A stretch of 32,000 bases of DNA from Candidatus Scalindua sp. (GCA_031316235.1 JALDRA010000001.1:2610001-2642000), one strand, 5' to 3'; numbered from the stretch's first letter, positions 3,455 through 19,127 are shown. Notes: generated from the letters alone by a model not told the origin. Numbers and translations are program-made.

Positions 3455-3578
3455 CATAGTGCCGTGCCTCAGACTCATTTTATAAGGTTCCTGTATTCCA
3501 TGGGACTACATGCAGGTAGGATTTGATATTTGGCTAATCGGTAATTCATTCTGGCTCAATCTGTTTAGGAGTAAATTG

Positions 3579-4145: not shown

Positions 4146-4199
4146 GGTACCGAAAATTTCTCAAACGGAAATATTGATTTTGCGGCAATTTTTTTTAAT

Positions 4200-5336
4200 A
4201 TGAAATTTACTGAATTCATCAGCAAATCTAATAAATATAACCAGTTGGCATTCTACATACTAAGTGGATCTGAATGCTTTCTCAAGCGGAAGGTTCTCTC
4301 AGAAATAAAAAAAAGTTTCTTCGGTAATGGAGGTGAAGAGCAAGGATTAATCGTGTTTCACGGTAAAGAGCCTCAGAAAAAGAAAAGTGGTGAGCATCTT
4401 GATGGTTTTTCCCCGGGAAATAGAGTCGATACTGGTACGTCATATTGTGATATCTTTGAGGAGATTGGAACCGTTTCCATGTTTGGCAGAGGTAAACTGA
4501 TTATTGTGGAAAATGCCGATAATTTTTTGAATGCAAATCAGCAGAAGCTTTTGGAATTAATGGAAAGTTCATTTAATTCTCATTGCTTAGTTTTGAATGT
4601 TGAGTCTCTAGATAAGAGGAAAAAAATCGTAAAGGTTTTAAGTGATAATCGAGGTATTCATATCGAGTGTCATAAACTTTATGATAGTCCCTCACCATGG
4701 GAAAGGGGTAGGCCTGAGTATGACAGCGAGTTGACAAAGTGGATTGTTTTACATGCCAAAGAGTATAAAAAGGTTATGAATCAAAAAACCGCATACTCTC
4801 TCGTGAAAAAGACAGGAAGTGAATTGGCTATTATTGATAAGCAATTAGAGATCTTGTCGCTTTATATGGGCGACAGAGAGCTGATAACCGAAGAAGATAT
4901 TCAGAATGTATTAGGGGTTGGGCAGAGGGAAAAGATCTATCATCTGCTTGATGCGGTTGGTAAAAAAGATTTTGTCTCTGCCATGAAGGCGGTAAACCTG
5001 ATGTTTGATACTGGTATGGAAAACGAGCGGAAGCATGTCATATTTGATGATAAGGTGATCGCCATAGCGATGATAAGTGCATTGCATAAAAGGATGAAAG
5101 AGTTATGGAAGACGCTGAGAGTTCTGGATAAAGGAGGTGGAGAGAACGATGTCCTGGAAAAAACATCTCAAAAAAGGGCGTTTGTTAGTAAGATAATGAA
5201 ACAAGCGAGAAATTTTATTGAAGAAGAGATGCCTGATAAATGGAAATGTATGCTTGAGGCAGATTTGTTGTGTAAAACAAGTAAACTGGCACCACCTGTT
5301 ATAATAGAACAGTTAATGGTAAAATTGTGTAGGTGA
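4200..5336 (+). CDS. holA: DNA polymerase III delta subunit
   Basis: N-terminus of HolA type (...QLAFYILSGSECFLKRKVLSEIKK), KLIIVENADNFL box, C-terminal helical domain (LLDAVGKKDF..A......L; LEADLLCKTSK....IIEQLMVKL). Size 378 aa. Confidence 0.7.
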   Translation: MKFTEFISKSNKYNQLAFYILSGSECFLKRKVLSEIKKSFFGNGGEEQGLIVFHGKEPQKKKSGEHLDGFSPGNRVDTGTSYCDIFEEIGTVSMFGRGKLIIVENADNFLNANQQKLLELMESSFNSHCLVLNVESLDKRKKIVKVLSDNRGIHIECHKLYDSPSPWERGRPEYDSELTKWIVLHAKEYKKVMNQKTAYSLVKKTGSELAIIDKQLEILSLYMGDRELITEEDIQNVLGVGQREKIYHLLDAVGKKDFVSAMKAVNLMFDTGMENERKHVIFDDKVIAIAMISALHKRMKELWKTLRVLDKGGGENDVLEKTSQKRAFVSKIMKQARNFIEEEMPDKWKCMLEADLLCKTSKLAPPVIIEQLMVKLCR

Positions 5337-5487
5337 AAGCCGTTTATTAATTCCTGTCTGGTTCTGGCTTGTCCAGGATCGGTCTTAAGCTATTATAAAA
5401 CGGGGCATATGTACGTTGTTCTTTTCCGGTCTACAGGACAGAATGTGGTAGTAATCTTGAAAGAGTGTATTTCTTGTGTGTGTATTG

Positions 5488-5534
5488 AGTACCAGCCTTA
5501 TGAAAATATTGTTATTTTTCAGAAGGCTGGTACT
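5488..5534. terminator. 12-bp stem-loop between convergent holA and lipoprotein gene
   Basis: AGTACCAGCCTT (5488-5499) pairs with AAGGCTGGTACT (5523-5534), with a 23-nt AT-rich loop. The T-rich stretch TCTCGTTTATCGTCTTTT follows on the + strand. It lies 17 nt from the minus-strand stop at 5551. Confidence 0.5.
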
Positions 5535-5550
5535 TCTCGTTTATCGTCTT

Positions 5551-6225
5551 TTATTGTCCAAGACCCTTTAATTTATCTGTAATGCTCTCTTTTAGACCAT
5601 CAGCTTCAGATGAAGTTGATGATTCTATCTCTTCTTTGGTTTTTTCCGTAACAAGTTCTTTCAGTTTTTCCTTAGCCTTTGAAATAATACCCATGGCTTC
5701 CTGCGAATCGCTGTCGTGATTATTCAAGACATCCTCTGCGGTTGTAATGGCCTCTTTATACTTGCCTTGGTCAAAAAACCTCTTGGCTTTTTCAATAAGT
5801 TCTTTTATGATTGAAGATGTTTTGTCTTTCATTGAATCAATTTTAGAGCTTTCCTCGGTTCCTGCTTCATCACCGAGCTCAGAAATAGATTCTTCCTCCT
5901 TGTCTTTGTCAAAAACTGCTTTGGCCTTGTCAACCTGATCGCTGATGACCGAAGAAGTCTTCTCTTTTATTTTTTCTGCTTCAGATTTTACTTTTTCTAT
6001 TATTCCACTACCCTTGGTTTCCGTTTCATCTGTCTGTTTAACTACAGATTCCGTTGTCTCAGCTGTTTTTTCTTTAACCTCTTCCAGTATGCTATTTTCA
6101 TGGTCGGTAATGTTTCTTTCCTCACTTGTCAAACCCTCTCTGGGGCGCTCTTGATCCTGCCCACATCCAACAATGAAAAAACTTAAGGCTAAAATGCACA
6201 TGAAAAAATTCTTCGAAAATGCCAT
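5551..6225 (-). CDS. Lipoprotein, Glu/Lys/Ser-rich low-complexity with C-terminal TPR-like helix pair
   Basis: ATG with GGAGG about 8 nt upstream. Lipobox FFIVGC in MAFSKNFFMCILALSFFIVGCGQ. Repeated segments KEKTSSVISDQVDKAKAVFD and KDKTSSIIKELIEKAKRFFD, then FFDQGKYKEAITTAEDVL. Confidence 0.75.
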   Translation of the reverse strand: MAFSKNFFMCILALSFFIVGCGQDQERPREGLTSEERNITDHENSILEEVKEKTAETTESVVKQTDETETKGSGIIEKVKSEAEKIKEKTSSVISDQVDKAKAVFDKDKEEESISELGDEAGTEESSKIDSMKDKTSSIIKELIEKAKRFFDQGKYKEAITTAEDVLNNHDSDSQEAMGIISKAKEKLKELVTEKTKEEIESSTSSEADGLKESITDKLKGLGQ

Positions 6226-6338
6226 TTATCATTCCTCCCCTTTTAATAGTTAGTTCCAAAATAATGTAAGAAAGAGTTGTTTTATATTTCAAACTCTCTA
6301 AAACAGGAGCGATAAAAAAATATACTGAAACTGTAACT

Positions 6339-6962
6339 TTACTTGAGAGTGCGTACCGGGCGAACGTAACGTGAACCTATACGTCTCCAGAATACGCAGC
6401 CACAGCCGTAGTGTACAAGCCAGGCACCGCCAGATATATAACTGTCACCAGTCCAGACCCATATTTGTTTCCTGTCAAAAACAGGGTCGATAAACAGGTC
6501 GCCATTCATCTGTTTTGATTCCAGCAAAGATGCAGCTTCTTCCATGGTAGGTAATCTCCAATCAGTATATCCAGCATAACCTTGAATATCTAGATTGCTT
6601 ACCCATTTCTTTGAATTTTCCCAACTGAGACACTGGTTAGAACCTGACTGGTGCCACATTAGACCAGTGGCATGGTCGATAACAACGCTATCTCCACCAA
6701 TAATCTTTAGTTCATAATCATTAGCAAAATCACCATCTTTATTATCAAATTTATCATAGAAATTGTATTTCTTTACCATCGAATCATCAGCAAAATTTCC
6801 ACAGGTAGAGCGTAGTTTTACCTGCTGTTCCCCTTTTTCTTCTGCTGGTGCCAGACTGCAACGTAAAGAGACAAGCAGTGTGATAAGAAAAAAGATAAAC
6901 AGAAGTACAGCTGTTTGTTTTCTGGACGTGTGAAAAACGGATTGAAGTTTCATGTATCGCAT
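6339..6962 (-). CDS. Exported DUF1566 (Lcl C-terminal-like) domain protein
   Basis: DHATGLMWHQ...W..SKKWVSNL...GYTDWRLPTMEEAASLL...YVRPVRT matches the DUF1566 pattern as I remember it. A signal-like N-terminus begins at the MRYMKLQ... methionines (6962/6953). The ORF is open up to an ATG at 7076, so the start is uncertain. Confidence 0.7.
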   Translation of the reverse strand: MRYMKLQSVFHTSRKQTAVLLFIFFLITLLVSLRCSLAPAEEKGEQQVKLRSTCGNFADDSMVKKYNFYDKFDNKDGDFANDYELKIIGGDSVVIDHATGLMWHQSGSNQCLSWENSKKWVSNLDIQGYAGYTDWRLPTMEEAASLLESKQMNGDLFIDPVFDRKQIWVWTGDSYISGGAWLVHYGCGCVFWRRIGSRYVRPVRTLK

Positions 6963-7185
6963 ATTTGTGTGTAAAGGTATAAATATTCCCCGAACAAAAG
7001 AAATAGTGAAAACTTCCCTTGTATACTCCCGGATCATATGGCAGAATAACAGATACATATTACCGAAATCAAGCATAATAAACGTAAATGAATAAAATCT
7101 GTAGATATATACTCATCTCATAATGGTTTTCGGATAAAATCCGAGATAAAATTGAGCGAGTATACCTTCACCAAGATCTGGTATA

Positions 7186-7222
7186 CTAAAACCAGTTTGG
7201 TTTTAGATTTTTCTAAAAACCA
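7186..7222. promoter_or_regulatory. Palindromic operator-like element, three copies of CTAAAACCA
   Basis: CTAAAACCA (7186-7194), GTT, TGGTTTTAG (7198-7206) form a perfect 9-bp inverted repeat. A third direct copy CTAAAAACCA lies at 7213-7222. This allows two mutually exclusive hairpins, or a dimer binding site. Confidence 0.35.
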
Positions 7223-7909
7223 AAGACTGATTGCTGCTATCCCCGGACAAAAAGCGCCAAGGGCTTTATTCGTCCCGGTTTTTTCAGATTGTATCCTAAG
7301 CTCAATATGAGTCAGGTATATCGTATCTACCAGATATTTCTTCCCATGTCAAATAGAATTTTCATATCCTTGTGGATCTGTTTGTTGTCTGGTCATTCTC
7401 ATCCAGCCGCCAATGGCCTGGAAAGGTATGAGGAAAACCGGCAAGGTGCTGTTGAAGAAGAACCAGAGACAACTTTATTGACTGCATGAAAAAAATAATT
7501 CTGGTGTGCCGCGAAATACAACATGATATCGTCGCAGCGGGAGAAATTTGTGAACAAAAGATCCGAAAAAACCATGAACCTTTTTTATAGGGTTACGATG
7601 CACTCTAAACAGGCGAAAGAAAGCCCATTCAGGGTAAAGATAGAGTTTAAACGCCAGATTGAGAATGCTGTAGAATCAATGAGCGGCGACTATGTCAAGA
7701 TCACTTTTGCACCGTACTGAGAGTGGAGCCGAAAATAACCCGAAATTCACACCTGTACCAGCCAGCCTGACAGTTGTCCATCCTCTGCCGCCACCCATGT
7801 CCAGGTTTCTTCATACAGATTCTATGAAGAAATATAATTTTTATGGGAATTTCCGGTAGTACCAATCAGTTGTGAATCCTGAATGTTTTGTGCGAACTTG
7901 ATTATGAAT

Positions 7910-7954
7910 ACGAGCCAGGCTCGCAGCTTTATCTAAACTGCGAGCCTGGCTCGT
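7910..7954. repeat. Perfect 17-bp inverted repeat (stem-loop), about 190 nt downstream of the lipid operon
   Basis: ACGAGCCAGGCTCGCAG (7910-7926), 11-nt loop, CTGCGAGCCTGGCTCGT (7938-7954). Each arm is itself internally palindromic (GAGCC.GGCTC). There is no flanking U-tract on either strand. Confidence 0.6.
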
Positions 7955-8143
7955 GAGAAGTTGATACAGCAAGAATAGAGAAATTGTAACAGCTCTGATG
8001 TTTTCAATAGAGATGTCAAAAATGCCTGCTCCATTTATACCGAGTGTATAAGAAAATACAGAGTATCCGTGTTAACCCTTGACACCATGCTGCTCGCTGG
8101 TAACGGTACAAACCTGTGGAGACAGAAATACTGTGTAGAGTCT

Positions 8144-9610
8144 TTAACTTACCGAAACTTCTTTTTCTGAGGGCACAGTTACTGCACTGCTCTTATACCA
8201 ATCCTGGTAATAATCTCCTGAATCATAAAGCTTATGGAGATTATCTAAAACCTGCTCAAATACCTGCTGCCAATCAGACCCTACTCGAAAGCCAAACATG
8301 GCATTTCGTTTCCCGTGCATTGTGCTGCCAATGGTTTTTGCGGATTTCCTAAAACGGTGCCTCAGATTATCACCGGCATAAAGATTATCGTACATGTACT
8401 GCATGCCATCAATAAAGTCTTCCAGCGTCATATCAACGAATCTGTGTACAACATGTGCAGTGTCATAATATTTCCAGTCTTCAGGATAATTTTTGCGGAA
8501 AATCCTTTTTTCCGCGTCGAGTCTATGATAAAGGGCGGTTTGCGGGAATGGACAATTAATACCAAAAGTAAGGACATCAATATTGTTTTCGAGGACAAAT
8601 TCTGTCATCGTTTTGAATGAATCTTTATTGTCTCCATCTGCTCCCAAGACGATAGAGCCCCAGACTATGAGACCGTGATCATGAACCTTTTGAATGCAAT
8701 CGTAATAACTGTCAGTTCCCAGTCTGAGATTGACCTTTTTATTCATCTTCTCAAGAACTGCCTCGTTCGTCGATTCTATTCCGCAGAGAAATCCAAAATT
8801 ACCGCTCTTGGCCATTAGATCCAGAGCCTCTGCGTCCTGTGAAATATTAAGAGCGGTAAACCCAAGCCAATCCTTTTTTATGCCCCTGTCAATCATACCA
8901 CGCCAGAGGGCCTTTGCCCTGTTTGCGGAGTTCTTACTGTGGCCATAAAAATTGTCCTCGGCAAACATCAATCCCTTGTAATCAGTGGCTTCCATCTCAT
9001 CTAAGACATCTTCATATGGTCTTTCACGGTATTTTTTCCCCTGGAAGGTGGGTACGCTGCAAAAATCACAGTAATTCGGACATCCCTTGGTTGTCACAAT
9101 AGAAGAAAACTTATAATCATATTTTTTCTTCAAAAATTCCCTGTCGGGGAATACGTGTTTCATTTCTGATAAGGCCGGCAGCCCTCCATTGTAGATTTTT
9201 TTGAGTTCACCGTTTTCAAAATCTTTAATTACCTGCGGCCAGAGAGCTTCAGCCTCACCGGTAAATATGGCATCAACATATTGAGCCGATTCATTTGGCA
9301 TAACGGATACATGAATTCCTCCCATGATTACGGTCATACCTCGGTTTCTACAGGCTTCCGCAATTTTGTATGCCCTTGCCACCTGGTAGGTGACAGAGGT
9401 GATACATACCAGATCAACGGGCTCAAACGTTATTTTTCCGTTTTCATCGATTGCCAGCTCCATATTTTCATCGATTAAGTCAAATTCCCAATCTCCGGGA
9501 GTCAAAGCTGCGATATAAGCAAGGTTTAAAGGCATTTGTACGATAACAGAGATACTTTCTTCACCATGTCTTCCTGGTGGGTGTGGATTGATGAGCATCA
9601 TTTTTCTCAT
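8144..9610 (-). CDS. B12-binding-domain radical SAM enzyme (class B type)
   Basis: CX3CX2C motif in TTKGCPNYCDFCSVP. N-terminal Rossmann-like B12-binding region (MMLINPHPP...DLVCITSVTYQVARAYKIAEA...TVIMGGIHVS). AGGAGG lies 7 nt upstream of the ATG. Confidence 0.85.
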   Translation of the reverse strand: MRKMMLINPHPPGRHGEESISVIVQMPLNLAYIAALTPGDWEFDLIDENMELAIDENGKITFEPVDLVCITSVTYQVARAYKIAEACRNRGMTVIMGGIHVSVMPNESAQYVDAIFTGEAEALWPQVIKDFENGELKKIYNGGLPALSEMKHVFPDREFLKKKYDYKFSSIVTTKGCPNYCDFCSVPTFQGKKYRERPYEDVLDEMEATDYKGLMFAEDNFYGHSKNSANRAKALWRGMIDRGIKKDWLGFTALNISQDAEALDLMAKSGNFGFLCGIESTNEAVLEKMNKKVNLRLGTDSYYDCIQKVHDHGLIVWGSIVLGADGDNKDSFKTMTEFVLENNIDVLTFGINCPFPQTALYHRLDAEKRIFRKNYPEDWKYYDTAHVVHRFVDMTLEDFIDGMQYMYDNLYAGDNLRHRFRKSAKTIGSTMHGKRNAMFGFRVGSDWQQVFEQVLDNLHKLYDSGDYYQDWYKSSAVTVPSEKEVSVS

Positions 9611-9622
9611 TTTCTTGTCCTC

Positions 9623-11035
9623 CTAATTATTTAAAATCATATTAGCCACCCCCCAGCCTGAGGAGACAACGGCACAGATCCCTGGACCAGGATTTGTCCA
9701 GTGCCCTGCTAGAAAAAGATTCTTGAAAGGTGTAGTGTGCGGAAGCCTGTTCGACCAGGTTTGGTCAACGGTGACTGCCCAACCATATGCCGCACCCTTT
9801 GAATTAAGGGTGTAGCGTTTTAAAGTCCTGGGTGTACCGGTCTCAATTACATCAACGTGGTTCCGGATATCTGGAACAAGAGTTTCAAGAAAATTCATCG
9901 TGTGTTTTGTCATCTTTTCCTTAAAAGCATCAAAATTTCCTATTTCATCAAAATGCTCACTTAGGGACACCACAACGGTAATTATCTGCTTGCCGTCAGG
10001 TGCAAGGTTTGCATCCACTTTGGTTGGTACAGATATATAGAACCACTCACTCTCAGAACAACTCGTGCCTCCCGATGTATGATAGAAGCCTCTCTTTAAA
10101 TCTTTTAAATCAATTTTATTGCCAAGGCCCAGATATAACAGAAAGAACGATGTGCTTTCCTTCATGGTTCTTATTTTTTGAAGGTACGCCGCGTCAATCT
10201 CTTGATTATCGAGTAATGTAAAAAAAGTCTGTCCAGGATCTATATTTGAAACGAACTGATCAGCGTGGTATTTTTCCCCTCTGTCCGTTATAACTCCTTT
10301 TACAAGCATATCTTTCGTCAAGATCTTCTCGACCTTAGAAGATAACATAATACGGCCACCATAGTCAATAAATTTTTGAGTAATTGCGTCCGCAAAATTC
10401 TGGGTGCTCCCCAGTGGATAAAAAGCACCATCTTTGAGATAATTAACCAACATCTGGCACATACCAATAGCAGAAGCTTCATGAGGTGGAGAACCGATAT
10501 AACCCCATTGAGCGGACAGCACCATTTTAAGACGTTCATCAGTAAAAAAAATATCCAGCATTTCCTTATAAGTCAGGTCTTTGTACTTTGCCAATATTTG
10601 GCTCTCCTTTGTGCGAACCGTTGACCGGTATAATCCTACAAATTCCTTGAAGAACGCTGAAATATTGTTGCTTTCAGAGACAAAATTATTTTGGAGTACT
10701 TTTACGTAATCATCAAGATCCGCTGGTACATCTACCGAAAAGGTCGGGAAGTTTAAACTATCCATCGGATCCAGCTGTACAAACCTGATGTCTATTCCAA
10801 GTTCCTTGAGACATCTGCCAACGATGCTCCATGTTCCGCATCCGCCAATGTGGTGAACTGCGGCATCAAAAGTAAAACCTTTTCTTTTAAAAGAGGTGCA
10901 ATAGCCCCCCGGCAGGTAATGTTGTTCAATTAACAGTGTTTTTTTTCCGTTTTTTGCCAGGAATGCCCCGCAGATTAAACCTCCAATTCCTGCTCCGAGA
11001 ATGATTACATCGTATTTTGGCTCTTTCAGATTCAT
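9623..11035 (-). CDS. FAD-dependent phytoene-desaturase-family (CrtI/CrtN-like) oxidoreductase
   Basis: Dinucleotide fold YDVIILGAGIGGLICGAFLAKNGKKTLLIEQHYLPGG. C-terminal family motif NLFLAGHWTNPGPGICAVVSSG. The ATG at 11035 is preferred over the GTG at 11080 that opens the track ORF. Confidence 0.85.
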   Translation of the reverse strand: MNLKEPKYDVIILGAGIGGLICGAFLAKNGKKTLLIEQHYLPGGYCTSFKRKGFTFDAAVHHIGGCGTWSIVGRCLKELGIDIRFVQLDPMDSLNFPTFSVDVPADLDDYVKVLQNNFVSESNNISAFFKEFVGLYRSTVRTKESQILAKYKDLTYKEMLDIFFTDERLKMVLSAQWGYIGSPPHEASAIGMCQMLVNYLKDGAFYPLGSTQNFADAITQKFIDYGGRIMLSSKVEKILTKDMLVKGVITDRGEKYHADQFVSNIDPGQTFFTLLDNQEIDAAYLQKIRTMKESTSFFLLYLGLGNKIDLKDLKRGFYHTSGGTSCSESEWFYISVPTKVDANLAPDGKQIITVVVSLSEHFDEIGNFDAFKEKMTKHTMNFLETLVPDIRNHVDVIETGTPRTLKRYTLNSKGAAYGWAVTVDQTWSNRLPHTTPFKNLFLAGHWTNPGPGICAVVSSGWGVANMILNN

Positions 11036-11145
11036 GGGAATTGTACCAGTTGTGATTTTACTTATCGAACGAAATAACACTTATGAACTGCTGACAGATG
11101 AAACTCTAATAGCAGAGAGTGTATCTTAAATGGTGATTTTACTGA

Positions 11146-12384
11146 CTAATTTGAATATTTTGAGATGATGATAGATGAAATGTTGCCGGTATCAGAAAAA
11201 GCGTTGATAAGAACATTGTTTACCTCCGATGCTCTCTTTTTGTTCGGGACATAATCCAGGTCGCACGTGTCATCTTTTTCCTGATAATTTATCGTGGGCG
11301 GGATAACGCTAGTGTTGATTGCCATGATAGCTGCAACACACTGCATAGCGCCAGATGCATCGAGGCATTCACCAGTCATAGATTTTATGGCACTTATTGG
11401 AACTTTTGCTGCGATATTTCCAAAGTAATCCTTAATAACCCTGGTTTCCATCATGTCTCCGGTTTTACTTGAGTTTGCACATGCAGAAATATAGGAAATA
11501 TCGTCAATATTGAGCTCTGCTTCTCTCATTGCCAAAGAAATACACCTTACGCCTTCCTCGGTATTAAGTACTTCATGGTCTATTTTCTTCGGATTAAAGG
11601 TGTTTCCGTACCCCTTTATTTCAGCGTAAATTTTTGCATCTCTTTGTTGTGCGTCTTCCAGCCTTTCAATAACAAGCAGTGCTGCAGATTCCCCTATGAT
11701 AAATCCGTTCCTCCTCTTATCGAATGGTGCAGAGATTTCCACGGATTCTCCCCTGCTGCCAGAGAGTATGCCTGATCTGTACGCACCCCAGAAAATGTCC
11801 GGGGCTAACCCGTATACGCCGCCGGCTAATACTGCTTTTACTCGATTCAGCCGCAGGAAATCTGAAGCGTAAATTATTGCGTCCAGTCCGCTTGTGACGC
11901 CAGTTGATATTGTGGAGTTAAGACCTGTTGCCTTACAAAATATTGAAGCCCGGCTTGCAGGGGCATTTAATACAGTATTGGGGAATTCCATGGGATTTAC
12001 AAAACTCGGCCCCTCTTTGAGTGCTTCCAGATCAAATGAACTGATACTATCGATGCTGCCGTACGTTGAACCTATTACTATCCCTAAATCTTCTTCTCGA
12101 TAGATTTCATGGGTGATCTCGGCATCGTCCATGACCAATTTTGCAGCGGAAGAGGCCAGAAGAGAAGTTCTGTCAATATGCCTGATTCCTTTTTTGCCGA
12201 GAAATTCCCTTGCGTCAAATTCTGATATCTCACCTGCCTTTTTGCTTTTATACCGGGAAACATCAAAGAGGGTGATATCCTTTATACCGGAAACGCCGTT
12301 TGTTAAATTATTCCAGAAATCGTCTTTGTTCAGTCCCAGCGGAGATAAAATGCTGATTCCTGTTATTACCAAGCGTGTACTCAT
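11146..12384 (-). CDS. Ketosynthase-like protein lacking the catalytic triad (KS-beta / CLF-like partner)
   Basis: Full-length FabF/KAS II fold (VITGISILSPLG..., PPTINY...CDLDYVPN). Aligned against FabF motifs: TACxSG is TGVTSG (Cys to Val), AHGTST is ACANSS (His to Cys), KSMTGH is KSMTGE (His to Glu). Confidence 0.85.
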   Translation of the reverse strand: MSTRLVITGISILSPLGLNKDDFWNNLTNGVSGIKDITLFDVSRYKSKKAGEISEFDAREFLGKKGIRHIDRTSLLASSAAKLVMDDAEITHEIYREEDLGIVIGSTYGSIDSISSFDLEALKEGPSFVNPMEFPNTVLNAPASRASIFCKATGLNSTISTGVTSGLDAIIYASDFLRLNRVKAVLAGGVYGLAPDIFWGAYRSGILSGSRGESVEISAPFDKRRNGFIIGESAALLVIERLEDAQQRDAKIYAEIKGYGNTFNPKKIDHEVLNTEEGVRCISLAMREAELNIDDISYISACANSSKTGDMMETRVIKDYFGNIAAKVPISAIKSMTGECLDASGAMQCVAAIMAINTSVIPPTINYQEKDDTCDLDYVPNKKRASEVNNVLINAFSDTGNISSIIISKYSN

Positions 12385-12437
12385 AGTTATCGTTAATCCA
12401 TCAGAAAAATAATTTCTCTAAAACAAAAAAAATAGCT

Positions 12438-13658
12438 TTACCCTGAATACTTTTTTAACACGAGGCAACTATTGTTACCACCAAAGGCATATGCGTTATT
12501 TAACGCTATGGTAATTTCCATTTCGCGTTTAACATTTGGAACGAAATCCAGATCACATTCAGGGTCCATGGTTTCATAGTTTATCGTAGGCGGAACCACA
12601 TCTCCTTTGATAGCCAGGGCACATGCAATGGCCTCTATAGCACTTGCCGCTCCCATAGTATGACCTAACATCGATTTAATAGAACTTATCGCCAGCCGCT
12701 TTGCATGTTCTCCAAAAACCTTTTTAATCGATATTGTTTCAGCTTTGTCATTTGCCAAAGTTCCCGTTCCATGCGCACTTATGTATTGAACATCTTCAGG
12801 TTTTATATTTGCATCTTTTAATGCTTTTTCCATCGCTGAGACAACACCGTTCCCATCCGGGTGGGGGATGGTGATGTGATAACTGTCACAACTTAAACCG
12901 TAACCTAGAATTTCTGCGTAGATATTTGCGTTTCTGGCCAGTGCATCTTCCAGGGACTCCAGCACAAGCATTCCAGCACCTTCGCCAATCAGCATACCCT
13001 TCCTGTTTTTATCAAAAGGCTGGCAGATTTTCGGTGCAATAGCATTAAGCCTGCCAAATCCAACATACGCGACTTTTGAAAAAGGGTCAGAACCACCGGC
13101 TAACATTATGTCTGCTCTGCCTAATCTTATTAAGTCACAGGCATAACCTATAGCATAATTCCCTGCCGCACAGGCTGTCGGAATAATAGTAGTTGGCCCC
13201 TTGAAACCAAATTCGATAGATACGTTAGAAGGTATATTGATGCAGGGGTGGCTCAAGAAAAGATATGGATCTACGCTATCATCTCCGTTTTCATGCCGTA
13301 AAAGATTTACCCTTTCAAGGATCTGGATTTCCCCTGCGGTTGTGCCGATAGAGACACCTATGTTTTCAGGTGCAATGTCCTTTATCTGTAACCTGGAGTC
13401 ATCTAAAGCAAGCTTGGTAGCAGCGATCGCGAATTGTGACCCTTTGCCAATTTTGCGGTTTGAACCATTGCTAACATAATCTTCATACGTGAAGTCTTTG
13501 ACTTCACAGCCTCTGTGAACCTTGAAAAGGGAGGTATCGAAGGACTTCACTTCAGACACTCCGGATTTCCCAGCAATTAAAGCATTCCAAAATACGTCTT
13601 TGCCACATCCTATAGGGGAAATTGCTCCCACACCAGTTATTACAATTCTTTTGTTCAT
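12438..13658 (-). CDS. 3-oxoacyl-ACP synthase II-type ketosynthase (catalytically intact)
   Basis: FabF-like throughout. Active-site Cys in [13 protein letters not shown], His in YISAHGTGT, Lys/His in [16 protein letters not shown], then PPTINYE...CDLDFVPN. Confidence 0.9.
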
Positions 13659-13784
13659 AGAACTTCTAGCTCTTCTTTTACAATCTCACCTTATTTTAGA
13701 GGTACAAAAAAGCAACCCTTTGAATAAATTTTCCAGGAAATGCTTATTCTTTAAAGGACTTCCGGCTGTGAATAAACCGGAATT

Positions 13785-14234
13785 TTAAAGCAGTATAGTA
13801 TTTTTATCTGCGACTCCAAAACTCAATGTTGCTTTTGTAACTATCTTTTCTCCCACTTTAGCTACACCCTTAACTATTGCAGCGCTGGAAACAATTTTTT
13901 CGCTGTTTATTTCTAATATCAGCTGATCTCCAGGGAATACAGGTTTTGAAAAACGAACATTGGCTGAAGCCAAAAGAAACACCTTGTCTTTCACTGTATC
14001 CGTATTAAAGCTCTTCTGGAAGAGAATTATTGATGCTTGTGCCAGGGCCTCTATGATCAAAACTCCCGGCATGATGGCAAAATCAGGAAAGTGTCCGGCA
14101 AAAAACGCTTCATTGCCCGTAACGTTTTTCAAACAGACAATTCTGCTCTCTTTTTGGAATTCAATAACCCTATCGATAAACAGGAACGGAAATTTTTGAG
14201 GAACTAACTCCCTCACTTCCTCAAAGCTCAACAT
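13785..14234 (-). CDS. fabZ: 3-hydroxyacyl-ACP dehydratase FabZ-like
   Basis: VPQKFPFLFIDRV, GHFPDFAIMPGVLIIEALAQ (catalytic His and Glu contexts), PVFPGDQL. The ATG at 14234 (150 aa, AAAGG upstream) is preferred. An alternative ATG lies at 14303. Confidence 0.85.
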   Translation of the reverse strand: MLSFEEVRELVPQKFPFLFIDRVIEFQKESRIVCLKNVTGNEAFFAGHFPDFAIMPGVLIIEALAQASIILFQKSFNTDTVKDKVFLLASANVRFSKPVFPGDQLILEINSEKIVSSAAIVKGVAKVGEKIVTKATLSFGVADKNTILL

Positions 14235-14416
14235 TGTCAGGCGCCTTTCAGCTTTAAAAATACCCTCCACACGAATCACTGTTTTCAGGGTGCAGACAGG
14301 CATCCTGAAAAAGGTATCGCATGTATTCTTGCATGATTGGTACCGTAAAACCCGTCACCGTCTGAAGTTTTACACCCAAACTTGGAGAGTTGACTGTGTC
14401 AGTTAAAACTTAGCTA

Positions 14417-14677
14417 TCAGTTTCCCTCAATTGTTGATTTTGTCATCTTAATTGTAGCATTCAGGGAAGTTATATCTACCAGCTTTTCTTCTGGAATCTG
14501 AATTTTGAATTTTTTCTCAATAAGGGCTAAAATTTCCAGTGCTAAAAGAGAATCTATTTCCAGATCCTTGAAAAAATCAGCATCTCTTTTTTCCCATATT
14601 TCACTCTCTTCTAGTTCGGTTACTTCCGCTACAATCGCCGTAACCTCTTTTTCTATAGTATCATCAGCCAATATCAT
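14417..14677 (-). CDS. Acyl carrier protein
   Basis: 86 aa, acidic, with the phosphopantetheine Ser context DLEIDSLLALEILALIE. A G-rich SD lies directly upstream of the ATG. First gene of the operon. Confidence 0.85.
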   Translation of the reverse strand: MILADDTIEKEVTAIVAEVTELEESEIWEKRDADFFKDLEIDSLLALEILALIEKKFKIQIPEEKLVDITSLNATIKMTKSTIEGN

Positions 14678-14795
14678 ACCCCCTTACAAAACAGCAACCA
14701 TGGAAATTTATAATAAAACAAAATTAACTTTCAAATTGAAATACCAGATATGAATAAAAGTTGTTATGAGACTCGCTATGAATTAAACTACACCG

Positions 14796-14824
14796 ATTAT
14801 AAATCATTAAATTCAAGGTCTCAA
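14796..14824 (-). promoter_or_regulatory. Sigma70-like promoter candidate for the ACP-led operon
   Basis: On the minus strand: TTGAGA (14824-14819), 17-nt spacer, TATAAT (14801-14796), about 120 nt upstream of the ACP ATG, in a very AT-rich leader. Confidence 0.35.
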
Positions 14825-15352
14825 ACTGCAAACTGAAATTTGAAGGAAAAATAACAAACTTACTGTGAGATGTCAATAACAATCTTAATATGAAACGACA
14901 ATTTTACCGCTGATCCAGATAAGACGAAAGGGTTTTGAAGTTTTACCTGGTAGCACCTGTCACAGCTTTTCCCATCATTAGGATGCCCTGGCGTTCAGGA
15001 AAAAGCGACCTGGCATTCTGACGGGGACGGGGTCGCATTTCTGACCGTCTTCGTCCGCTCTTTGCTTGATCAGGCCCTCAATACAGTTCGGGTTACATCT
15101 GCGGTTCAGATCGGTCCCACCTTACCTGAAACTGAACACGATACAATACCAAGGTATTTTTTTCTGGACCCCCGAGGGAAGGGGTGCCTGAAAAACTATC
15201 TGCATTTGTACCACAATGTTAATACAATTACAGGCTTAATCCATGAATATTCTGTTGAGATGAATTCACCTGATTCGTCAAAAGGAAATCTGATTTCCCT
15301 TATCTCTCCTTCATTAACCAGGAGATATGAGAAAAATCCATGAACTTGTGTG

Positions 15353-16192
15353 CTATGCATTCTTTCTGCTCTGTTTCGAAAAGTTCCTGCCCAATTTTTT
15401 TGATTTTCTCGTTGCTGCCTCGACTGCATCCATAAATGCATTTCTGATGCTATTTTTTTCTAATTTATGAACACCCTCTATTGTTGTTCCTCCAGGAGAG
15501 GTGACAAAGTCCTTGAGTTCAGCGGCATGTATTCCTGATTCGAGGACCATCTTTGCTGCGCCAAGAACTGTTTGCGCTGCAAGAGTTGTTGCCGTAGCCC
15601 TTGGCAGCCCCATCTTTACTCCTCCGTCTGACAGCGCTTCAATAACTATATAGATAAAAGCAGGTCCGCTTCCACTCAGACCGGTAACGGCATCAAGAAG
15701 GTGCTCTTCCACCAGGTAACCTTTGCCGACAGCATTAAGGACTTCATGTACGAACATTCTGTCATCTTGTATTGCATGCGTTCCTAAAGAGTAACCGGCA
15801 GCAGTTTCACCTACGAGACAGGGTGTGTTCGGCATTATCCGGATAATCCGGCACTCTGTGTTTAAATTTGATTCTATGAAACTTATAGGGATTCCGGCTG
15901 CGATAGAGATAACAAGATGTCTCGGGGTGATCACATCATTCAATTCTTCAAGGATGTTTCCCATTACGTTGGGTTTAACAGCCAGAAAAAGAATATCTGT
16001 GCCGGTTACAATTTTTCTGTTTTCCCGGAGAGTTTTTATTCCTGTTGATTTTTCCAGTAACCGGCATCGATCAAGGTCTATATCGCTGGCCATGATCCTG
16101 TCGTGGTCAGAAAGATCAGCATGCAGGATACCCTTTATCAATGCCTCTGCCATCTTTCCGCAACCAATAAAACCGATTCTCTCTTTACGCAT
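15353..16192 (-). CDS. proC: Pyrroline-5-carboxylate reductase
   Basis: RIGFIGCGKMAEALIKGIL NAD(P) fold, RIMPNTPCLVGE, GSGPAFIYIVIEALSDGGVKMGLPR, VTSPGGTT. Confidence 0.9.
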   Translation of the reverse strand: MRKERIGFIGCGKMAEALIKGILHADLSDHDRIMASDIDLDRCRLLEKSTGIKTLRENRKIVTGTDILFLAVKPNVMGNILEELNDVITPRHLVISIAAGIPISFIESNLNTECRIIRIMPNTPCLVGETAAGYSLGTHAIQDDRMFVHEVLNAVGKGYLVEEHLLDAVTGLSGSGPAFIYIVIEALSDGGVKMGLPRATATTLAAQTVLGAAKMVLESGIHAAELKDFVTSPGGTTIEGVHKLEKNSIRNAFMDAVEAATRKSKKLGRNFSKQSRKNA

Positions 16193-16337
16193 GTTCTCTT
16201 TCGTTCAAGTGACAGGAAAGGGTTTCCTCTTGATTTATTTGATTGATTTATTTGAGGTATTTGTTTATTTTATATCTCACTGGCCGTCAACTGGATTTTA
16301 CTGTGGCCTGAGATGTGTGTCAACCGTTTATTTGGTT

Positions 16338-16952
16338 ATGAGGGCTAAATATTTTAGATGGATACCACTTCTTTATTTCAAAATATTTCACAGGGTGAAG
16401 TTTTACGGATATGAAAATATCCCCGATTCCGGACCGGTTGTCATTGCCCCGAACCATGTTAGTTTTTATGATCCGATACTGGTTGGTATCGGGATAAAAA
16501 GGGACTTAAGATACATGGCCTGGGAAAGACTTTTCTCTATTCCTGTTCTCAAGGGAATAATACGGTTTTTCGGTGCATTTCCCGTAAATATTACTAAATT
16601 TGATAAGGCTGCATATGTGAATGCCCTTAAGGCATTGAGTGAAGGGGAGGCACTGGTGATCTTTCCAGAGGGGGGAAGGAGTGCTGACGGAAAGATGAAA
16701 GACTGCAAACTCGGATTTGCCCGGATTGCCTGTAAAACAAAAGCCCCGATTATTCCTGTCACAATTGTCGGTGCTTATGAAGCGTGGCCAAGGCAGAGAA
16801 AACTACCTCGTCCAAGACAGATTCTTGTCTATTATCATAACCCTGTTCGCATGAAAATGGGTGAGTTTGCAGATATGAAAGCCAGGAATGAGTTTTTTAC
16901 TGAAGTGACAAACAGGGTAGCGGGTGCAATCAGCAGCAAGCTGCCGGTATAA
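16338..16952 (+). CDS. plsC: 1-acyl-sn-glycerol-3-phosphate acyltransferase (PlsC family)
   Basis: Acyltransferase motifs APNHVSFYDP (NHxxxxD) and VIFPEGGRS. Start taken at the in-frame ATG at 16338. The upstream part of the 375-aa track ORF is antisense to proC. Confidence 0.8.
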   Translation: MRAKYFRWIPLLYFKIFHRVKFYGYENIPDSGPVVIAPNHVSFYDPILVGIGIKRDLRYMAWERLFSIPVLKGIIRFFGAFPVNITKFDKAAYVNALKALSEGEALVIFPEGGRSADGKMKDCKLGFARIACKTKAPIIPVTIVGAYEAWPRQRKLPRPRQILVYYHNPVRMKMGEFADMKARNEFFTEVTNRVAGAISSKLPV

Positions 16953-16969
16953 AAAGAGAGTGAAACAGA

Positions 16970-17803
16970 ATGGTTACTATGAATAAACAAAAGAACAGGT
17001 TTACTATTGCTGCAGTTCAATTTTGTGCAACTGAAGATAAAAAAGAGAATCTAACATTACTCAACCAGTTTATCCAGAGCGCCATTAAAAAAAATGCTGA
17101 TATTGTAGTTTTGCCGGAAGTTTCTAACTGTTGTGGGAGAAAGGAAGTTATGGTAGAAAATGCCGAGCAGATACCCGGTTACACGACAGATTTTTTTTCT
17201 GACATAGCTAAAAAAAGTGGGATCTCTATTGTGTGTGGAAGCATATTTGAAAAGGCTGAAAAGAACAAGGTTTTTAACACTTCGGTAATAGTTGGCAGCG
17301 ATGGAGAAATTCTGGCTAAATATAGAAAGATCCATCTTTTTGATGTTGATATTTCAGGCGGGATACGATATAAAGAATCCGGCCATGTTACCGCAGGAGA
17401 CGAGATTGTTTCCGTAAACCTGGGTAATTTTGATGCCGGTCTGGTTATCTGTTACGACCTGCGTTTCTGTGAGATCTTTCGAGTTCTCGCATTGAGGGGA
17501 GCTAAGATAATCTTTCTTCCTGCAGCGTTTACTTTAGCTACGGGAAAATACCATTGGGAACCGTTGATTAAGGCCCGCGCTATTGAAAATCAGGTATTTA
17601 TCGTTGCTGCAAATCAGATAGGAACAAGCCAGAACAATATTACCTGTTATGGTAAAAGCATGATAGTTGATCCGTGGGGCAGGGTGCTGGCAGAGGCTGA
17701 AGATGATGAGAATATTATCTGTGCAGAGATAGATCTTGCTGTGTTGGATACTGTGAGGGCTGAAATCCCGACGTTTAATCATCGGCGCATTGATTTATAT
17801 TGA
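16970..17803 (+). CDS. Carbon-nitrogen hydrolase family protein (Nit/omega-amidase-like)
   Basis: Glu-Lys-Cys triad contexts: VVLPEV, YRKIHLFDVDI, VICYDLRFCEIF. It follows plsC by 17 nt. Confidence 0.85.
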   Translation: MVTMNKQKNRFTIAAVQFCATEDKKENLTLLNQFIQSAIKKNADIVVLPEVSNCCGRKEVMVENAEQIPGYTTDFFSDIAKKSGISIVCGSIFEKAEKNKVFNTSVIVGSDGEILAKYRKIHLFDVDISGGIRYKESGHVTAGDEIVSVNLGNFDAGLVICYDLRFCEIFRVLALRGAKIIFLPAAFTLATGKYHWEPLIKARAIENQVFIVAANQIGTSQNNITCYGKSMIVDPWGRVLAEAEDDENIICAEIDLAVLDTVRAEIPTFNHRRIDLY

Positions 17804-17814
17804 ATTTGGAGATT

Positions 17815-18990: not shown

Positions 18991-19076
18991 TGTAAAGTTA
19001 ATTTCTTCCGGAAACCCTGCTCTCTGAGATCGATAGATTCAGCCATTGGATGTATGTGGATAGAAAAATCTCCTTA

Positions 19077-19118
19077 TTTTTAGAGGGATAGGCGTCAGCA
19101 CCTATCCCTCTAAAAAAG
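19077..19118. terminator. Long perfect stem-loop between convergent nifS and htrA
   Basis: TAGAGGGATAGG (19081-19092), 8-nt loop, CCTATCCCTCTA (19101-19112), extended by a flanking T-run on the 5' side and an A-run on the 3' side. The U-tract therefore precedes the stem on both strands, which is atypical for an intrinsic terminator. Confidence 0.4.
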
Positions 19119-19127
19119 AGTTAACGA

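What the first reader, a model, noticed from the sequence alone, without database searches (positions are those of the whole stretch)
8144..14824. Dedicated ACP-FabZ-KS-KS'-CrtI-like desaturase-B12 radical SAM operon: candidate ladderane-type lipid pathway
Seen in sequence:
- Six co-directional minus-strand genes follow an AT-rich leader with a promoter-like TTGAGA-17-TATAAT.
- Intergenic gaps are short: 182 nt between ACP and FabZ (113 nt if FabZ starts at 14303), then 126, 53, 110 and 12 nt.
- The genes encode a stand-alone ACP, a FabZ-type dehydratase, an intact FabF-type KS, a triad-less KS partner, an FAD phytoene-desaturase homologue and a B12-binding radical SAM enzyme.
- There is no ketoreductase, enoyl reductase or acyltransferase in the operon.
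- A PlsC acyltransferase operon lies 1.6 kb upstream, divergent.

Established knowledge, from memory and not checked here:
- Comparative genomics of 'Candidatus Kuenenia stuttgartiensis' (Rattray et al. 2009) proposed exactly this gene combination for making concatenated-cyclobutane ladderane lipids.
- Heterologous expression attempts (Javidpour et al. 2016) did not yield ladderanes, so the enzymology remains unresolved.

Inference: this window carries that cluster or an ortholog. A desaturase that makes a polyene, plus a radical enzyme that cyclises it on an ACP-bound chain, is the attractive unproven mechanism.
Basis: partly seen in the sequence, partly recalled or inferred. Interest (0 to 1): 0.85.

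Follow-up and report, generated by a model that had tools for sequence, protein, structure and literature searches.

The report
Known anammox ladderane-candidate lipid operon
This is a Scalindua-family anammox bacterium's copy of the well-studied six-gene "Cluster I", long suspected but never shown to make ladderane lipids; the same operon also turns up in DNA assigned to soil Acidobacteria, Myxococcota and other Planctomycetota, so it is not unique to ladderane producers.

Summary
Six co-directional minus-strand genes (8144-14677) encode an ACP, a FabZ-type dehydratase, an intact ketosynthase, a triad-less ketosynthase partner, a CrtI-like flavoenzyme and a B12-domain radical SAM enzyme.

It is the ortholog of Kuenenia stuttgartiensis Cluster I (KustE3603-3608), from a Scalinduaceae-like anammox bacterium. 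Four of the six proteins match solved amxACP, amxFabZ and amxFabF structures and carry their signature residues. The cluster and the ladderane hypothesis are already published, and the function is still unproven.

Three refinements:
- **Promoter.** It is TTGACA-17-TGT-TATTTT, 52 nt upstream (14876-14848), and it is present in all 34 anammox loci compared.
- **Distribution.** The same six-gene order, with a triad-less KS partner and in most loci the bulky FabZ tunnel residue, occurs in high-GC contigs labelled Acidobacteriota, Myxococcota and non-anammox Planctomycetota.
- **Fused modules.** In several of these loci a second rSAM-KS-KS' module follows directly. It matches the separate anammox kuste2803-2805 cluster.

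The parts
14848..14876 (-). Conserved sigma-70-type promoter: TTGACA (14876-14871), 17-nt spacer ending in TGT (extended -10), TATTTT (14853-14848)
   Evidence: Found (10 of 12 matches, with TG before the -10). TATTGAC(A/T)-17/18-TGnTAnnnN is present in all 34 upstream regions (28 distinct) of anammox loci.
14796..14824 (-). It may be a second promoter or a chance match.
   Evidence: Best consensus score in the region. It lies in a segment that aligns to gaps in the 33 other anammox loci.
14678..14847 (-). AT-rich leader / 5' UTR, about 165 nt if transcription starts after the conserved -10. AAGGGGG Shine-Dalgarno sequence before the ACP ATG.
   Evidence: Sequence read. No Rfam family. No excess folding energy, z = +1.67.
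14417..14677 (-). amxACP-type acyl carrier protein, 86 aa, with a DSL phosphopantetheine attachment site
   Evidence: PF00550. E = 1.8e-40 to PDB 7qv0_D, 1.7e-35 to 7auf and 9e-35 to 9s5i_E (amxACPs). The best remaining ACP chains in the PDB score about 6e-07.
13785..14234 (-). amxFabZ-type 3-hydroxyacyl-ACP dehydratase, 149 aa from Met24 of the 172-aa ORF
   Evidence: PF07977. E = 1.9e-77 to 7qv0_A. His48, Glu62, Ile69, Ser96 and Val115 match the published amxFabZ signature.
12438..13658 (-). amxFabF2-type ketosynthase with an intact Cys163-His296-His333 triad
   Evidence: meets the FabF subfamily NF005589 cutoff, 455 vs 387 bits. Triad read.
11146..12384 (-). amxFabFmut-type ketosynthase partner (chain-length-factor-like), with Val/Cys/Glu in place of Cys/His/His
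   Evidence: E = 1.2e-174 to PDB 9s5h_C. The alignment to B. subtilis FabF 4ls6 shows the three substitutions.
9623..11035 (-). CrtI/CrtISO-superfamily FAD flavoenzyme ('PDH'), 470 aa from the ATG. An alternative GTG start lies at 11080.
   Evidence: PF01593 and PF13450. Below every NCBIfam cutoff, e.g. crtI_fam 152.7 vs 238.1 bits. Best PDB match is CrtI 4dgk at only 1e-22. The 470-aa form is the gene called in an identical public contig.
8144..9610 (-). B12-binding-domain radical SAM enzyme, 488 aa, CxxxCxxC motif = C177/C181/C184
   Evidence: PF02310 and PF04055. The three cysteines are invariant in alignment A1. AF2 model has pLDDT 82.9. Nearest folds are AprD4, MgmA, TsrM, TokK, CysS and OxsB.

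Best explanation
**What it is (near certain).** This is the Scalinduaceae ortholog of anammox 'Cluster I' (KustE3603-3608). It is a self-contained operon, apparently driven by a conserved sigma-70 promoter with an extended -10, and it encodes a private, ACP-tethered fatty-acid/polyketide-like module.

**How it most likely works.**
- Steps shown for orthologs in the literature:
  - The intact KS and the triad-less KS' form a KS/chain-length-factor-like heterodimer. It decarboxylates malonyl-amxACP and favours C6-C8 acyl chains.
  - amxFabZ dehydrates short (C6, then C8) 3-hydroxyacyl chains. It converted substrate on amxACP but not on the canonical ACP of the same organism.
- Steps inferred here:
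  - Ketoreduction is borrowed from a FabG encoded elsewhere. In the non-anammox relatives a FabG-like KR sits in the operon.
  - No enoyl reductase was seen in any of the annotated loci. The chain therefore probably stays unsaturated as a short enoyl- or polyenoyl-amxACP.
  - The CrtI/CrtISO-like flavoenzyme (isomerase, saturase or desaturase) and the radical SAM enzyme then act on that short ACP-bound chain, by C-C bond formation or methyl transfer.
  - The product is handed to a second rSAM-KS-KS' module (kuste2803-2805 type). That module is encoded elsewhere in anammox genomes but directly downstream in the non-anammox relatives.

In anammox bacteria the end product is most plausibly the ladderane lipid or part of it. 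This remains unproven.
For: **Identity.**
- Order, lengths and 60-77% identity to Kuenenia locus L096.
- About 88-90% identity (read by eye from the printed alignments) to the 7qv0 amxFabZ/amxACP chains, which I take to be the Scalindua brodae complex named in the paper's methods headings; the tool does not give the source organism.
- The nearest rSAM clusters (89% and 86% identity) include members named Candidatus Scalindua or Scalinduaceae.
- amxFabZ residues I69, S96 and V115, and the KS' triad Val/Cys/Glu.

**Operon unit.**
- All 74 metagenome loci keep the order ACP-FabZ-KS-KS'-PDH-rSAM as far as each contig reaches.
- Flanking genes are not conserved.
- The promoter is conserved in 34 of 34 anammox loci.

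**Biochemistry of orthologs.** Granatino 2026 and Dietl 2023.

**No ER but KR present in relatives.**

**Second module contiguous in L088, L094 and L092.** Its KS groups with the anammox kuste2804-type KS at 91% bootstrap.

**Ladderane link.** The cluster is conserved across anammox lineages. [quoted passage not shown]
Against: - No experiment links any Cluster I protein to ladderanes. kuste3603-3608 expressed in E. coli gave no new fatty acids.
- Orthologous operons exist in contigs labelled Acidobacteriota, Myxococcota and Planctomycetota, groups not known to make ladderanes. This removes the 'exclusive to ladderane producers' argument.
- amxFabZ's poor activity above C8 does not fit a role in every round of an iterative ring-building scheme.
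- Isotope labelling did not match the published ring-by-ring scheme either.
- The fold closest to the rSAM model is AprD4. From my own knowledge, not checked here, AprD4 has a B12-like domain but does not use cobalamin, so cobalamin use by this enzyme is itself unproven.
- The trees are neighbour-joining only, and support for the KS' and KS4 groups is weak (33% and 53%).
Confidence: 0.55

Rival explanations
1. 'Type b' reading (favoured by Dietl 2023 and Granatino 2026). Cluster I builds only the linear C6-C8 stretch of the ladderane fatty acid on amxACP. The cyclobutane block is made elsewhere, and a radical SAM enzyme joins the two.
For: The chain-length preference of amxFabZ and of the KS/KS' heterodimer equals the length of the linear part. 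Labelling of the linear part fits canonical elongation.
Against: It leaves the conserved flavoenzyme without a role. No ER is encoded to saturate the linear chain in any of the annotated loci. No separate pathway for the ring block is known. The same core occurs in bacteria with no known ladderane.
Confidence: 0.2
2. The operon is not a ladderane pathway. It makes another specialised lipid or polyketide, or a cofactor-like short acyl unit, that is shared by anammox bacteria, Acidobacteriota, Myxococcota and Planctomycetota. Ladderanes come from other genes, for example the kuste3335-3352 region.
For: Orthologous six-gene operons with triad-less KS' partners, and in most loci a bulky FabZ tunnel residue, occur in high-GC non-anammox contigs. 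About 90 distinct non-anammox ACP clusters rank ahead of the anammox ones in a profile search. Heterologous expression of kuste3603-3608 gave no ladderane.
Against: Conservation in the anammox lineages sampled and the very high expression reported suit a bulk membrane lipid. Anammox proteins form their own clade (200/200 bootstraps), so function may have diverged. The lipids of the non-anammox carriers are unknown; all named carriers are MAGs.
Confidence: 0.2
3. The CrtI-like enzyme desaturates a long ACP-bound chain to a polyene, and the radical SAM enzyme triggers a cascade cyclisation to the ladder.
For: The gene content (flavoenzyme plus rSAM) allows it on paper. It was the original proposal.
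Against: Neither polyunsaturated nor cyclopropyl fatty acids have been found in anammox bacteria. The labelling pattern does not fit. The cascade is computed to be unfavourable. amxFabZ and the KS/KS' pair disfavour chains longer than C8. Kuste3607 makes no lycopene.
Confidence: 0.05

Closest known systems
Anammox 'Cluster I' (Kuenenia stuttgartiensis KustE3603-3608; orthologs in Scalindua brodae and Brocadia fulgida)
   Same: Same six genes, order and strand. Same protein lengths as Kuenenia, 60-77% identity. The amxACP, amxFabZ (I69/S96/V115) and amxFabFmut (triad lost) signatures are present. Same conserved promoter.
   Different: Different species, Scalinduaceae-like. Longer intergenic spacers than in Kuenenia (182/126/53/110/12 nt here, against 48/18/98/5/4 nt between the called genes of L096). 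The KS' has His->Cys where Kuenenia has Asn. Flanking genes are unrelated.
Orthologous operons in non-anammox bacteria (contigs labelled Acidobacteria 13_1_40CM_2_60_7, Terriglobales, Blastocatellia, Vicinamibacteria-type, Myxococcota, Planctomycetota); not found described in the held literature
   Same: Same six-gene order. CHH KS plus triad-less KS'. FabZ with Ile, Leu or Ala at the tunnel position and no basic residue at 96/115. ACP with the ELWEKR motif. 33-60% identity to the window proteins.
   Different: GC of 54-76% in the loci I class as non-anammox-type. Overlapping or tightly packed genes. Extra in-operon FabG-like KR, and FabH in the Acidobacteriota loci. Often a second rSAM-KS-KS' module. 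Hosts are not known to perform anammox or to make ladderanes.
Type II polyketide KS/CLF systems, especially highly reducing ones (ishigamide Iga11/Iga12; actinorhodin ActA/ActB)
   Same: An active KS paired with an inactive homolog encoded next to it, a dedicated ACP and a separate dehydratase. Heterodimer formation is shown for the anammox pair.
   Different: The KS is closer to FabF than to PKS ketosynthases (TIGR03150 471 bits; actinorhodin KS only 6e-48 to the KS'). The KS' does not carry the catalytic Gln that I recall as typical of aromatic-PKS CLFs (from memory, not tested here). The operon adds a flavoenzyme and an rSAM.
Anammox cluster kuste2802-2805 (PPTase, rSAM, FabF, non-canonical KS)
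   Same: Related rSAM (50-51% identity) followed by a KS and a triad-less KS (loci L010, L011). The corresponding module is contiguous with the Cluster I core in L088, L094 and L092.
   Different: Not in this window. Lacks ACP, FabZ and the flavoenzyme. Its rSAM forms a separate deep clade.
kuste3335-3352 / Desulfotalea psychrophila lipid clusters, and NCBIfam TIGR04072 'rSAM_ladder_B12'
   Same: Also combine FAS-like genes, amine-oxidase-type flavoenzymes and B12-domain rSAM enzymes.
   Different: The window rSAM scores 86 bits against a cutoff of 360 for TIGR04072, so it is a different rSAM family. Desulfotalea makes no ladderanes.

Membership tests
Anammox Cluster I (KustE3603-3608 type) | Six co-directional genes in the order ACP, FabZ, KS, KS', CrtI-like flavoenzyme, B12-domain rSAM | tested here: met
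   Same order in Kuenenia L096 and in all 74 metagenome loci as far as each contig reaches.
Anammox Cluster I (KustE3603-3608 type) | amx-type ACP, distinct from the canonical ACP | tested here: met
   E = 1.8e-40 to 9e-35 against the three amxACP chains in the PDB, and about 6e-07 or weaker against all other ACP chains. Below all NCBIfam ACP cutoffs. The 3-10 helix described in the literature was not examined.
Anammox Cluster I (KustE3603-3608 type) | amxFabZ signature: Ile at the tunnel Gly position (69), Ser/Thr at 96, Val/Ile at 115, catalytic His/Glu kept | tested here: met
   H48, E62, I69, S96, V115. Criteria taken from Dietl 2023.
Anammox Cluster I (KustE3603-3608 type) | One KS with Cys-His-His. 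The partner has Cys replaced by Val/Thr and the two His by Asn/Glu/Cys. | tested here: met
   KS = CHH, KS' = V/C/E. Criteria from Granatino 2026.
Anammox Cluster I (KustE3603-3608 type) | Host is an anammox (ladderane-producing) bacterium | tested here: inconclusive
   The closest protein clusters are named Candidatus Scalindua or Scalinduaceae, and GC is 42%. No hydrazine synthase or other anammox marker gene lies in the window.
Anammox Cluster I (KustE3603-3608 type) | Makes ladderane lipids | not testable with these tools
   Unproven even for the type cluster.
Claim that the cluster is 'exclusive to ladderane producers' (Dietl 2023) | No orthologous operon outside anammox bacteria | tested here: not met
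   Loci L004-6, L095, L088/89, L094, L092, L145-148 and L150. MAG labels are Acidobacteria, Terriglobales, Blastocatellia, Myxococcota and Planctomycetota.
NCBIfam TIGR04072 rSAM_ladder_B12 | Score at or above the curated cutoff of 360 bits | tested here: not met
   86.3 bits.
Phytoene desaturase family (TIGR02734 crtI_fam) | Score at or above the curated cutoff of 238.1 bits | tested here: not met
   152.7 bits. Carotenoid isomerase TIGR02730 scores marginally better at 155.9 bits against a cutoff of 586.9. Kuste3607 makes no lycopene.
Canonical FabF (TIGR03150) and FabZ (TIGR01750) equivalogs | Scores at or above the curated equivalog cutoffs | tested here: not met
   KS 471.3 vs 493.75 bits, KS' 343.8 vs 493.75, FabZ 148.2 vs 155.15. 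The KS does meet the broader FabF subfamily NF005589, and the FabZ meets NF000582.
Cobalamin-dependent (class B) radical SAM enzymes | N-terminal B12-binding domain plus a CxxxCxxC radical SAM core; actual cobalamin use | tested here: inconclusive
   Both domains and the motif are present. The fold matches class B enzymes, but the top hit is AprD4, which I recall as cobalamin-independent (from memory, not checked here). Cofactor binding is not testable here.

The most novel reading that the evidence does not exclude
Cluster I is one branch of a wider operon family that I did not find described. The family occurs in soil and sediment Acidobacteriota, Myxococcota and Planctomycetota, and in it the two separate anammox clusters (kuste3603-3608 and kuste2803-2805) plus a ketoreductase form a single operon. 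The most novel reading is that this roughly 10-gene operon is the minimal machine for strained-ring (ladderane-like) acyl chains, and that such lipids are made outside anammox bacteria.
Probability: 0.15. Interest if true: 0.9.

Novelty: already known. Interest (0 to 1): 0.45.

Why it matters
How ladderanes are made is a long-standing open problem. No in vitro activity and no genetic system exist for any producer, and the case for Cluster I rests largely on conservation, expression and supposed exclusivity.

The window itself adds only one more ortholog. The comparison made here changes the framing in three ways:
- Exclusivity does not hold, so it can no longer be used as an argument for the ladderane role.
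- The non-anammox operons show which extra genes travel with the core: a KR, sometimes FabH, and a second rSAM-KS/KS' module. An enoyl reductase was never among them. This gives a concrete gene set for reconstitution.
- High-GC versions from other phyla offer alternative enzyme sources for the rSAM, which has so far not been obtainable from heterologous expression of the anammox cluster.

Tried and rejected
- **Genome-contig scan with the rSAM alignment.** It returned mostly unrelated rSAM families at 27-37% identity, so it is not a census. Only L008-L011 were useful.
- **Rfam on the whole window.** No match.
- **RNA folding of the 182-nt ACP-FabZ spacer and of the leader.** z = -0.57 and +1.67, so there is no sign of a structured RNA element.
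- **Flank synteny with three other anammox loci.** None found. The nearby PlsC and proC genes are therefore not part of the unit.
- **NCBIfam naming of the rSAM enzymes and of the non-anammox cluster proteins.** Nothing reaches a curated cutoff except the FabH family models, one FabG subfamily model (NF009466) for the KR, and a crotonase model for the ECH of L094.
- **Structure prediction and Foldseek for the rSAM.** The result confirms the class B fold but cannot separate methyltransferase from cyclase or other chemistry.
- **Taxonomy of the divergent loci L139 and L161 from flanking genes.** Not resolved.
- **Pairing of rSAM2 in L088, L094 and L092 with the anammox kuste2803-type rSAM.** The rSAM tree and identities do not support it. 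Only the KS trees link the second module.
- **Search for a cultured carrier of the non-anammox operon.** Every source name shown is a MAG label (one row, P0436, carries no MAG tag), and none belongs to a named cultured species.
- **Rejected reading: the cluster is aryl-polyene, PUFA or carotenoid machinery.** No such family reaches its threshold.

Full report
**1. What is in the sequence**

Six ORFs lie head to tail on the minus strand:

| Gene | Coordinates | Length |
|---|---|---|
| ACP | 14417-14677 | 86 aa |
| FabZ-like | 13785-14303 | 172 aa (149 aa from 14234) |
| KS | 12438-13658 | 406 aa |
| KS' | 11146-12384 | 412 aa |
| CrtI-like flavoenzyme | 9623-11080 (GTG) or 9623-11035 (ATG) | 485 or 470 aa |
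| B12-domain radical SAM | 8144-9610 | 488 aa |

- The 470-aa form of the flavoenzyme is the gene called in an identical public contig.
- Solved amxFabZ chains align only from residue 26 of the FabZ ORF. Its real start is therefore Met24 at 14234.
- Pfam and NCBIfam confirm each domain call. They show no ketoreductase, enoyl reductase or acyltransferase.
- The KS has Cys163/His296/His333. The KS' has Val, Cys and Glu at those positions.
- The rSAM has C177-x3-C181-x2-C184, invariant in a 13-sequence alignment.

**2. Promoter and surroundings**

I aligned 260 nt upstream of the ACP gene from 33 related anammox loci. That stretch of the window falls opposite gaps in the other sequences. An element 52 nt further upstream is present in all 34 sequences (28 of them distinct). 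It reads TATTGAC(A/T), a 17-nt spacer (18 nt in two loci) ending in TGn, then TAnnnN. In the window this is TTGACA at 14876-14871 and TGT-TATTTT ending at 14848. It is a sigma-70-type promoter with an extended -10, and it is the better candidate for the operon promoter.

- The leader and the long ACP-FabZ spacer show no Rfam match and no excess folding energy.
- Upstream of the leader lies proC (15353-16192, same strand as the cluster). The PlsC-type acyltransferase on the other strand comes only after that.
- No flanking gene is shared with the three related anammox loci compared. L008 ends within FabZ, so its upstream side could not be checked. The six genes plus promoter are the unit, and the PlsC neighbourhood is incidental.

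**3. Identity**

The cluster is the one called 'Cluster I' (KustE3603-3608) in the ladderane literature.

- The Kuenenia stuttgartiensis locus (L096, CP049055.1) has the same order and nearly the same lengths (86/149/406/412/489/486 aa). Identity to the window is 77, 64, 75, 62, 60 and 76%.
- Four of the six proteins have solved orthologs:
  - ACP: 7qv0_D, 7auf, 9s5i_E.
  - FabZ: 7qv0_A, 8ayb, 8ayc, 8ayd, 8ayi.
  - KS and KS': 9s5h, 9s5i.
- The published amx signatures are all present. FabZ has Ile69 in place of the tunnel glycine, plus Ser96 and Val115. The KS' triad is lost in the published way.
- The window is not from Kuenenia. Its FabZ and ACP are about 88-90% identical (read by eye from the printed alignments) to the 7qv0 chains. 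I take 7qv0 to be the Scalindua brodae amxACP-amxFabZ complex named in the paper's methods headings; the search tool does not give the source organism.
- Its rSAM is 89% and 86% identical to protein clusters whose members are named Candidatus Scalindua or Scalinduaceae.
- Its rSAM is 91% identical to the one in a Hainich groundwater MAG (L008).
- No anammox marker gene lies in the window itself.

**4. State of knowledge**

As of 2026 no protein of this cluster has been tied experimentally to ladderanes.

- Expression of kuste3603-3608 in E. coli gave transcripts and proteins but no new fatty acids. Kuste3607 did not replace CrtI.
- amxFabZ dehydrates C6 much faster than C8 and hardly touches C10-C12. 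It converted substrate on amxACP but not on the canonical ACP.
- The two KS homologs form a KS/chain-length-factor-like heterodimer. It decarboxylates malonyl-amxACP and prefers C6/C8 in crosslinking.

**5. Distribution: the new element**

Dietl 2023 states that the cluster is 'encountered exclusively' in ladderane producers. That does not hold in the data searched here.

An rSAM homolog at 55% identity sits in a 39.5-kb contig with 60% GC. Its protein is labelled 'Acidobacteria bacterium 13_1_40CM_2_60_7'. The operon there is ACP, FabZ-like, KS, KS', flavoenzyme, rSAM. A FabG-like KR and a divergent FabH follow, and glycoside-hydrolase genes flank it.

The same core order occurs in these loci:

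| Locus | Label or source | GC |
|---|---|---|
| L095 | JGI soil-type contig; its rSAM shares a 90% cluster with a protein labelled 'Terriglobales bacterium' | 58% |
| L088 | Planctomycetota MAG contig, 479 kb | 57% |
| L094 | Myxococcota MAG contig | 69% |
| L092 | Unlabelled contig, two extra genes inserted; related proteins labelled Blastocatellia | 66% |

- Identities to the window proteins are 33-60%.
- In all five loci tabulated (L004, L088, L092, L094, L095) the first KS is Cys-His-His and the second has lost the triad.
- The FabZ has Ile at position 69 (Leu or Ala in two loci) and no basic residue at 96/115.
- The ACP carries the same ELWEKR...DSxLALE core.

A metagenome scan with a flavoenzyme alignment returned 74 loci.

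- Every one keeps the gene order as far as its contig reaches. By my count from the listing, 40 loci show all six genes.
- In one locus (L139) the flavoenzyme is followed by an unrelated gene instead of the rSAM.
- 59 loci group with the anammox references (GC 0.35-0.55).
- 15 loci group with the non-anammox references (GC 0.54-0.76).

Two further searches agree:
- With the acidobacterial KS' as query, by my reading of the table about 47 clusters at roughly 49% identity or more come first. The anammox amxFabFmut proteins follow at 35-42%, and I saw no ordinary FabF ranked between them.
- A profile of the non-anammox ACPs finds about 90 clusters before the first anammox ACPs.

Every organism name shown for these carriers is a MAG label, and no cultured species is named among them.

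In a concatenated neighbour-joining tree the three anammox operons separate from the five non-anammox ones in 200 of 200 bootstraps. The anammox set is therefore a distinct branch of a wider family, not the whole family.

I did not find this distribution described in the held literature. There, 'ladderane' clusters outside anammox appear only as loose antiSMASH calls.

**6. A second module**

In L088, L094 and L092 the core is followed directly by a second rSAM, a third KS (Cys-His-His), a short triad-less KS homolog and a KR.

In a KS tree the third KS groups with the anammox kuste2804-type KS at 91% bootstrap. The short partner groups with the kuste2805 type at 53%. In anammox genomes that module is a separate locus of rSAM-KS-KS' (L010, L011).

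The rSAM tree does not show the same pairing, so the link rests on the KS proteins. If it holds, the two anammox clusters are halves of one pathway.

**7. Mechanism**

Shown for orthologs:
- a private ACP;
- KS/CLF priming and elongation;
- dehydration limited to short chains.

Inferred here:
- A KR travels with the core in every non-anammox locus where the downstream region is in view. No ER appears in any annotated locus. The chain therefore probably stays unsaturated.
- The flavoenzyme scores slightly better against carotenoid isomerase than against CrtI, and below both cutoffs. An isomerase or saturase role is as likely as a desaturase role.
- The rSAM has the class B fold. Its nearest solved structures are AprD4, then the methylases MgmA, TsrM, TokK and CysS, and the ring-contracting OxsB. 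I recall AprD4 as not using cobalamin. That is from memory and was not checked here.

Chemistry cannot be assigned from these data. I favour action of both tailoring enzymes on a short unsaturated acyl-amxACP, followed by hand-over to the second module. In anammox bacteria the end product is most plausibly a ladderane lipid. Confidence is moderate.

The main rivals are:
- the 'linear part only' model;
- a non-ladderane product shared with the other phyla.

**8. Verdict**

The orthology claim is correct. The cluster and its hypothesis are already published.

The added value is threefold:
- the conserved promoter;
- the Scalinduaceae assignment;
- the finding that the operon family extends beyond anammox bacteria.

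The third point weakens the exclusivity argument and defines a fuller gene set to test.

**Limits of this work**

- Taxonomy of the carriers rests on MAG labels, GC content and flanking genes.
- The trees are neighbour-joining.
- The genome-collection scan was not a census.

Noticed in passing
window 28432-31779 (-): A single 1115-aa ORF combines phosphoglycerate kinase (residues 49-464), a helix-hairpin-helix motif (489-547) and a Glu/Leu/Phe/Val dehydrogenase (596-1006). This looks like an unusual fusion. Whether it is real or a frameshift or assembly join was not checked.
   Followed up: no
window 20861-23482 (-): An 873-aa ORF has a GlpX-type fructose-1,6-bisphosphatase domain in residues 79-364 followed by a long tail with a weak TPR match. 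That is far longer than a usual GlpX.
   Followed up: no
window 24688-26664 (+): A 658-aa prismane/CO-dehydrogenase family protein, i.e. hybrid-cluster protein or CooS-like.
   Followed up: no
window 15353-16952: The longest PlsC ORF (GTG at 15825) overlaps proC (15353-16192, opposite strand) by 368 nt. The acyltransferase domain starts at residue 190, so the true start is probably downstream of proC, near 16314 by my estimate from the translation.
   Followed up: partly
L094 (Myxococcota GCA_964649065.1, CAZYOL010000003.1) 1-21425: A large cluster. Two further B12-domain rSAM genes and an enoyl-CoA hydratase lie divergently upstream. Then comes the six-gene core, then rSAM2-KS-KS'-KR, a metallo-beta-lactamase-fold protein, inositol-1-phosphate synthase, a PaaK/DVU_1553-type CoA ligase and an Asp/Arg hydroxylase. 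The CoA ligase recalls kuste3344 of the third Kuenenia cluster.
   Followed up: partly
L092 (JGI 3300082212) 4101-21437: A variant with an FGE-sulfatase/EgtB-like gene and an SRPBCC polyketide-cyclase-like gene inserted between FabZ and KS. Further downstream are a muconolactone-isomerase-like gene, a ferredoxin, an ECH, a KR, two more KS homologs and a FabH/CHS-like gene.
   Followed up: partly
L091 (Planctomycetota GCA_004295085.1, SHNF01000009.1), GC 72%: A reduced KS-KS'-rSAM trio without ACP, FabZ or flavoenzyme. An amx-like ACP and a second KS' are listed with the same longest-contig length of 884,128 bp (P0382, P0270), which suggests that a fuller copy lies elsewhere on the same contig.
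   Followed up: no
L139 (Ga0209172_10000939) 6459-12613: A divergent locus (GC 54%) in which ACP-FabZ-KS-KS'-flavoenzyme is followed by a ROK-family gene on the other strand instead of the rSAM. It is the only exception found to the six-gene rule.
   Followed up: partly
L093 (Brocadiales GCA_024451685.1) 3080-4516: Anammox genomes hold a third, stand-alone paralog of this rSAM (57% identity) with no fatty-acid genes nearby. It lies a few kb from COX1- and FixO-family genes, which suggest a cbb3-type oxidase.
   Followed up: no
ACP-FabZ spacers in L097-L170: Anammox loci keep a long ACP-FabZ spacer (median about 100-135 nt; 182 nt in the window). In the non-anammox loci the genes abut or overlap (median 14 nt). 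The gaps are approximate because gene starts were extrapolated from tblastn hits. The window's spacer shows no sign of RNA structure.
   Followed up: partly
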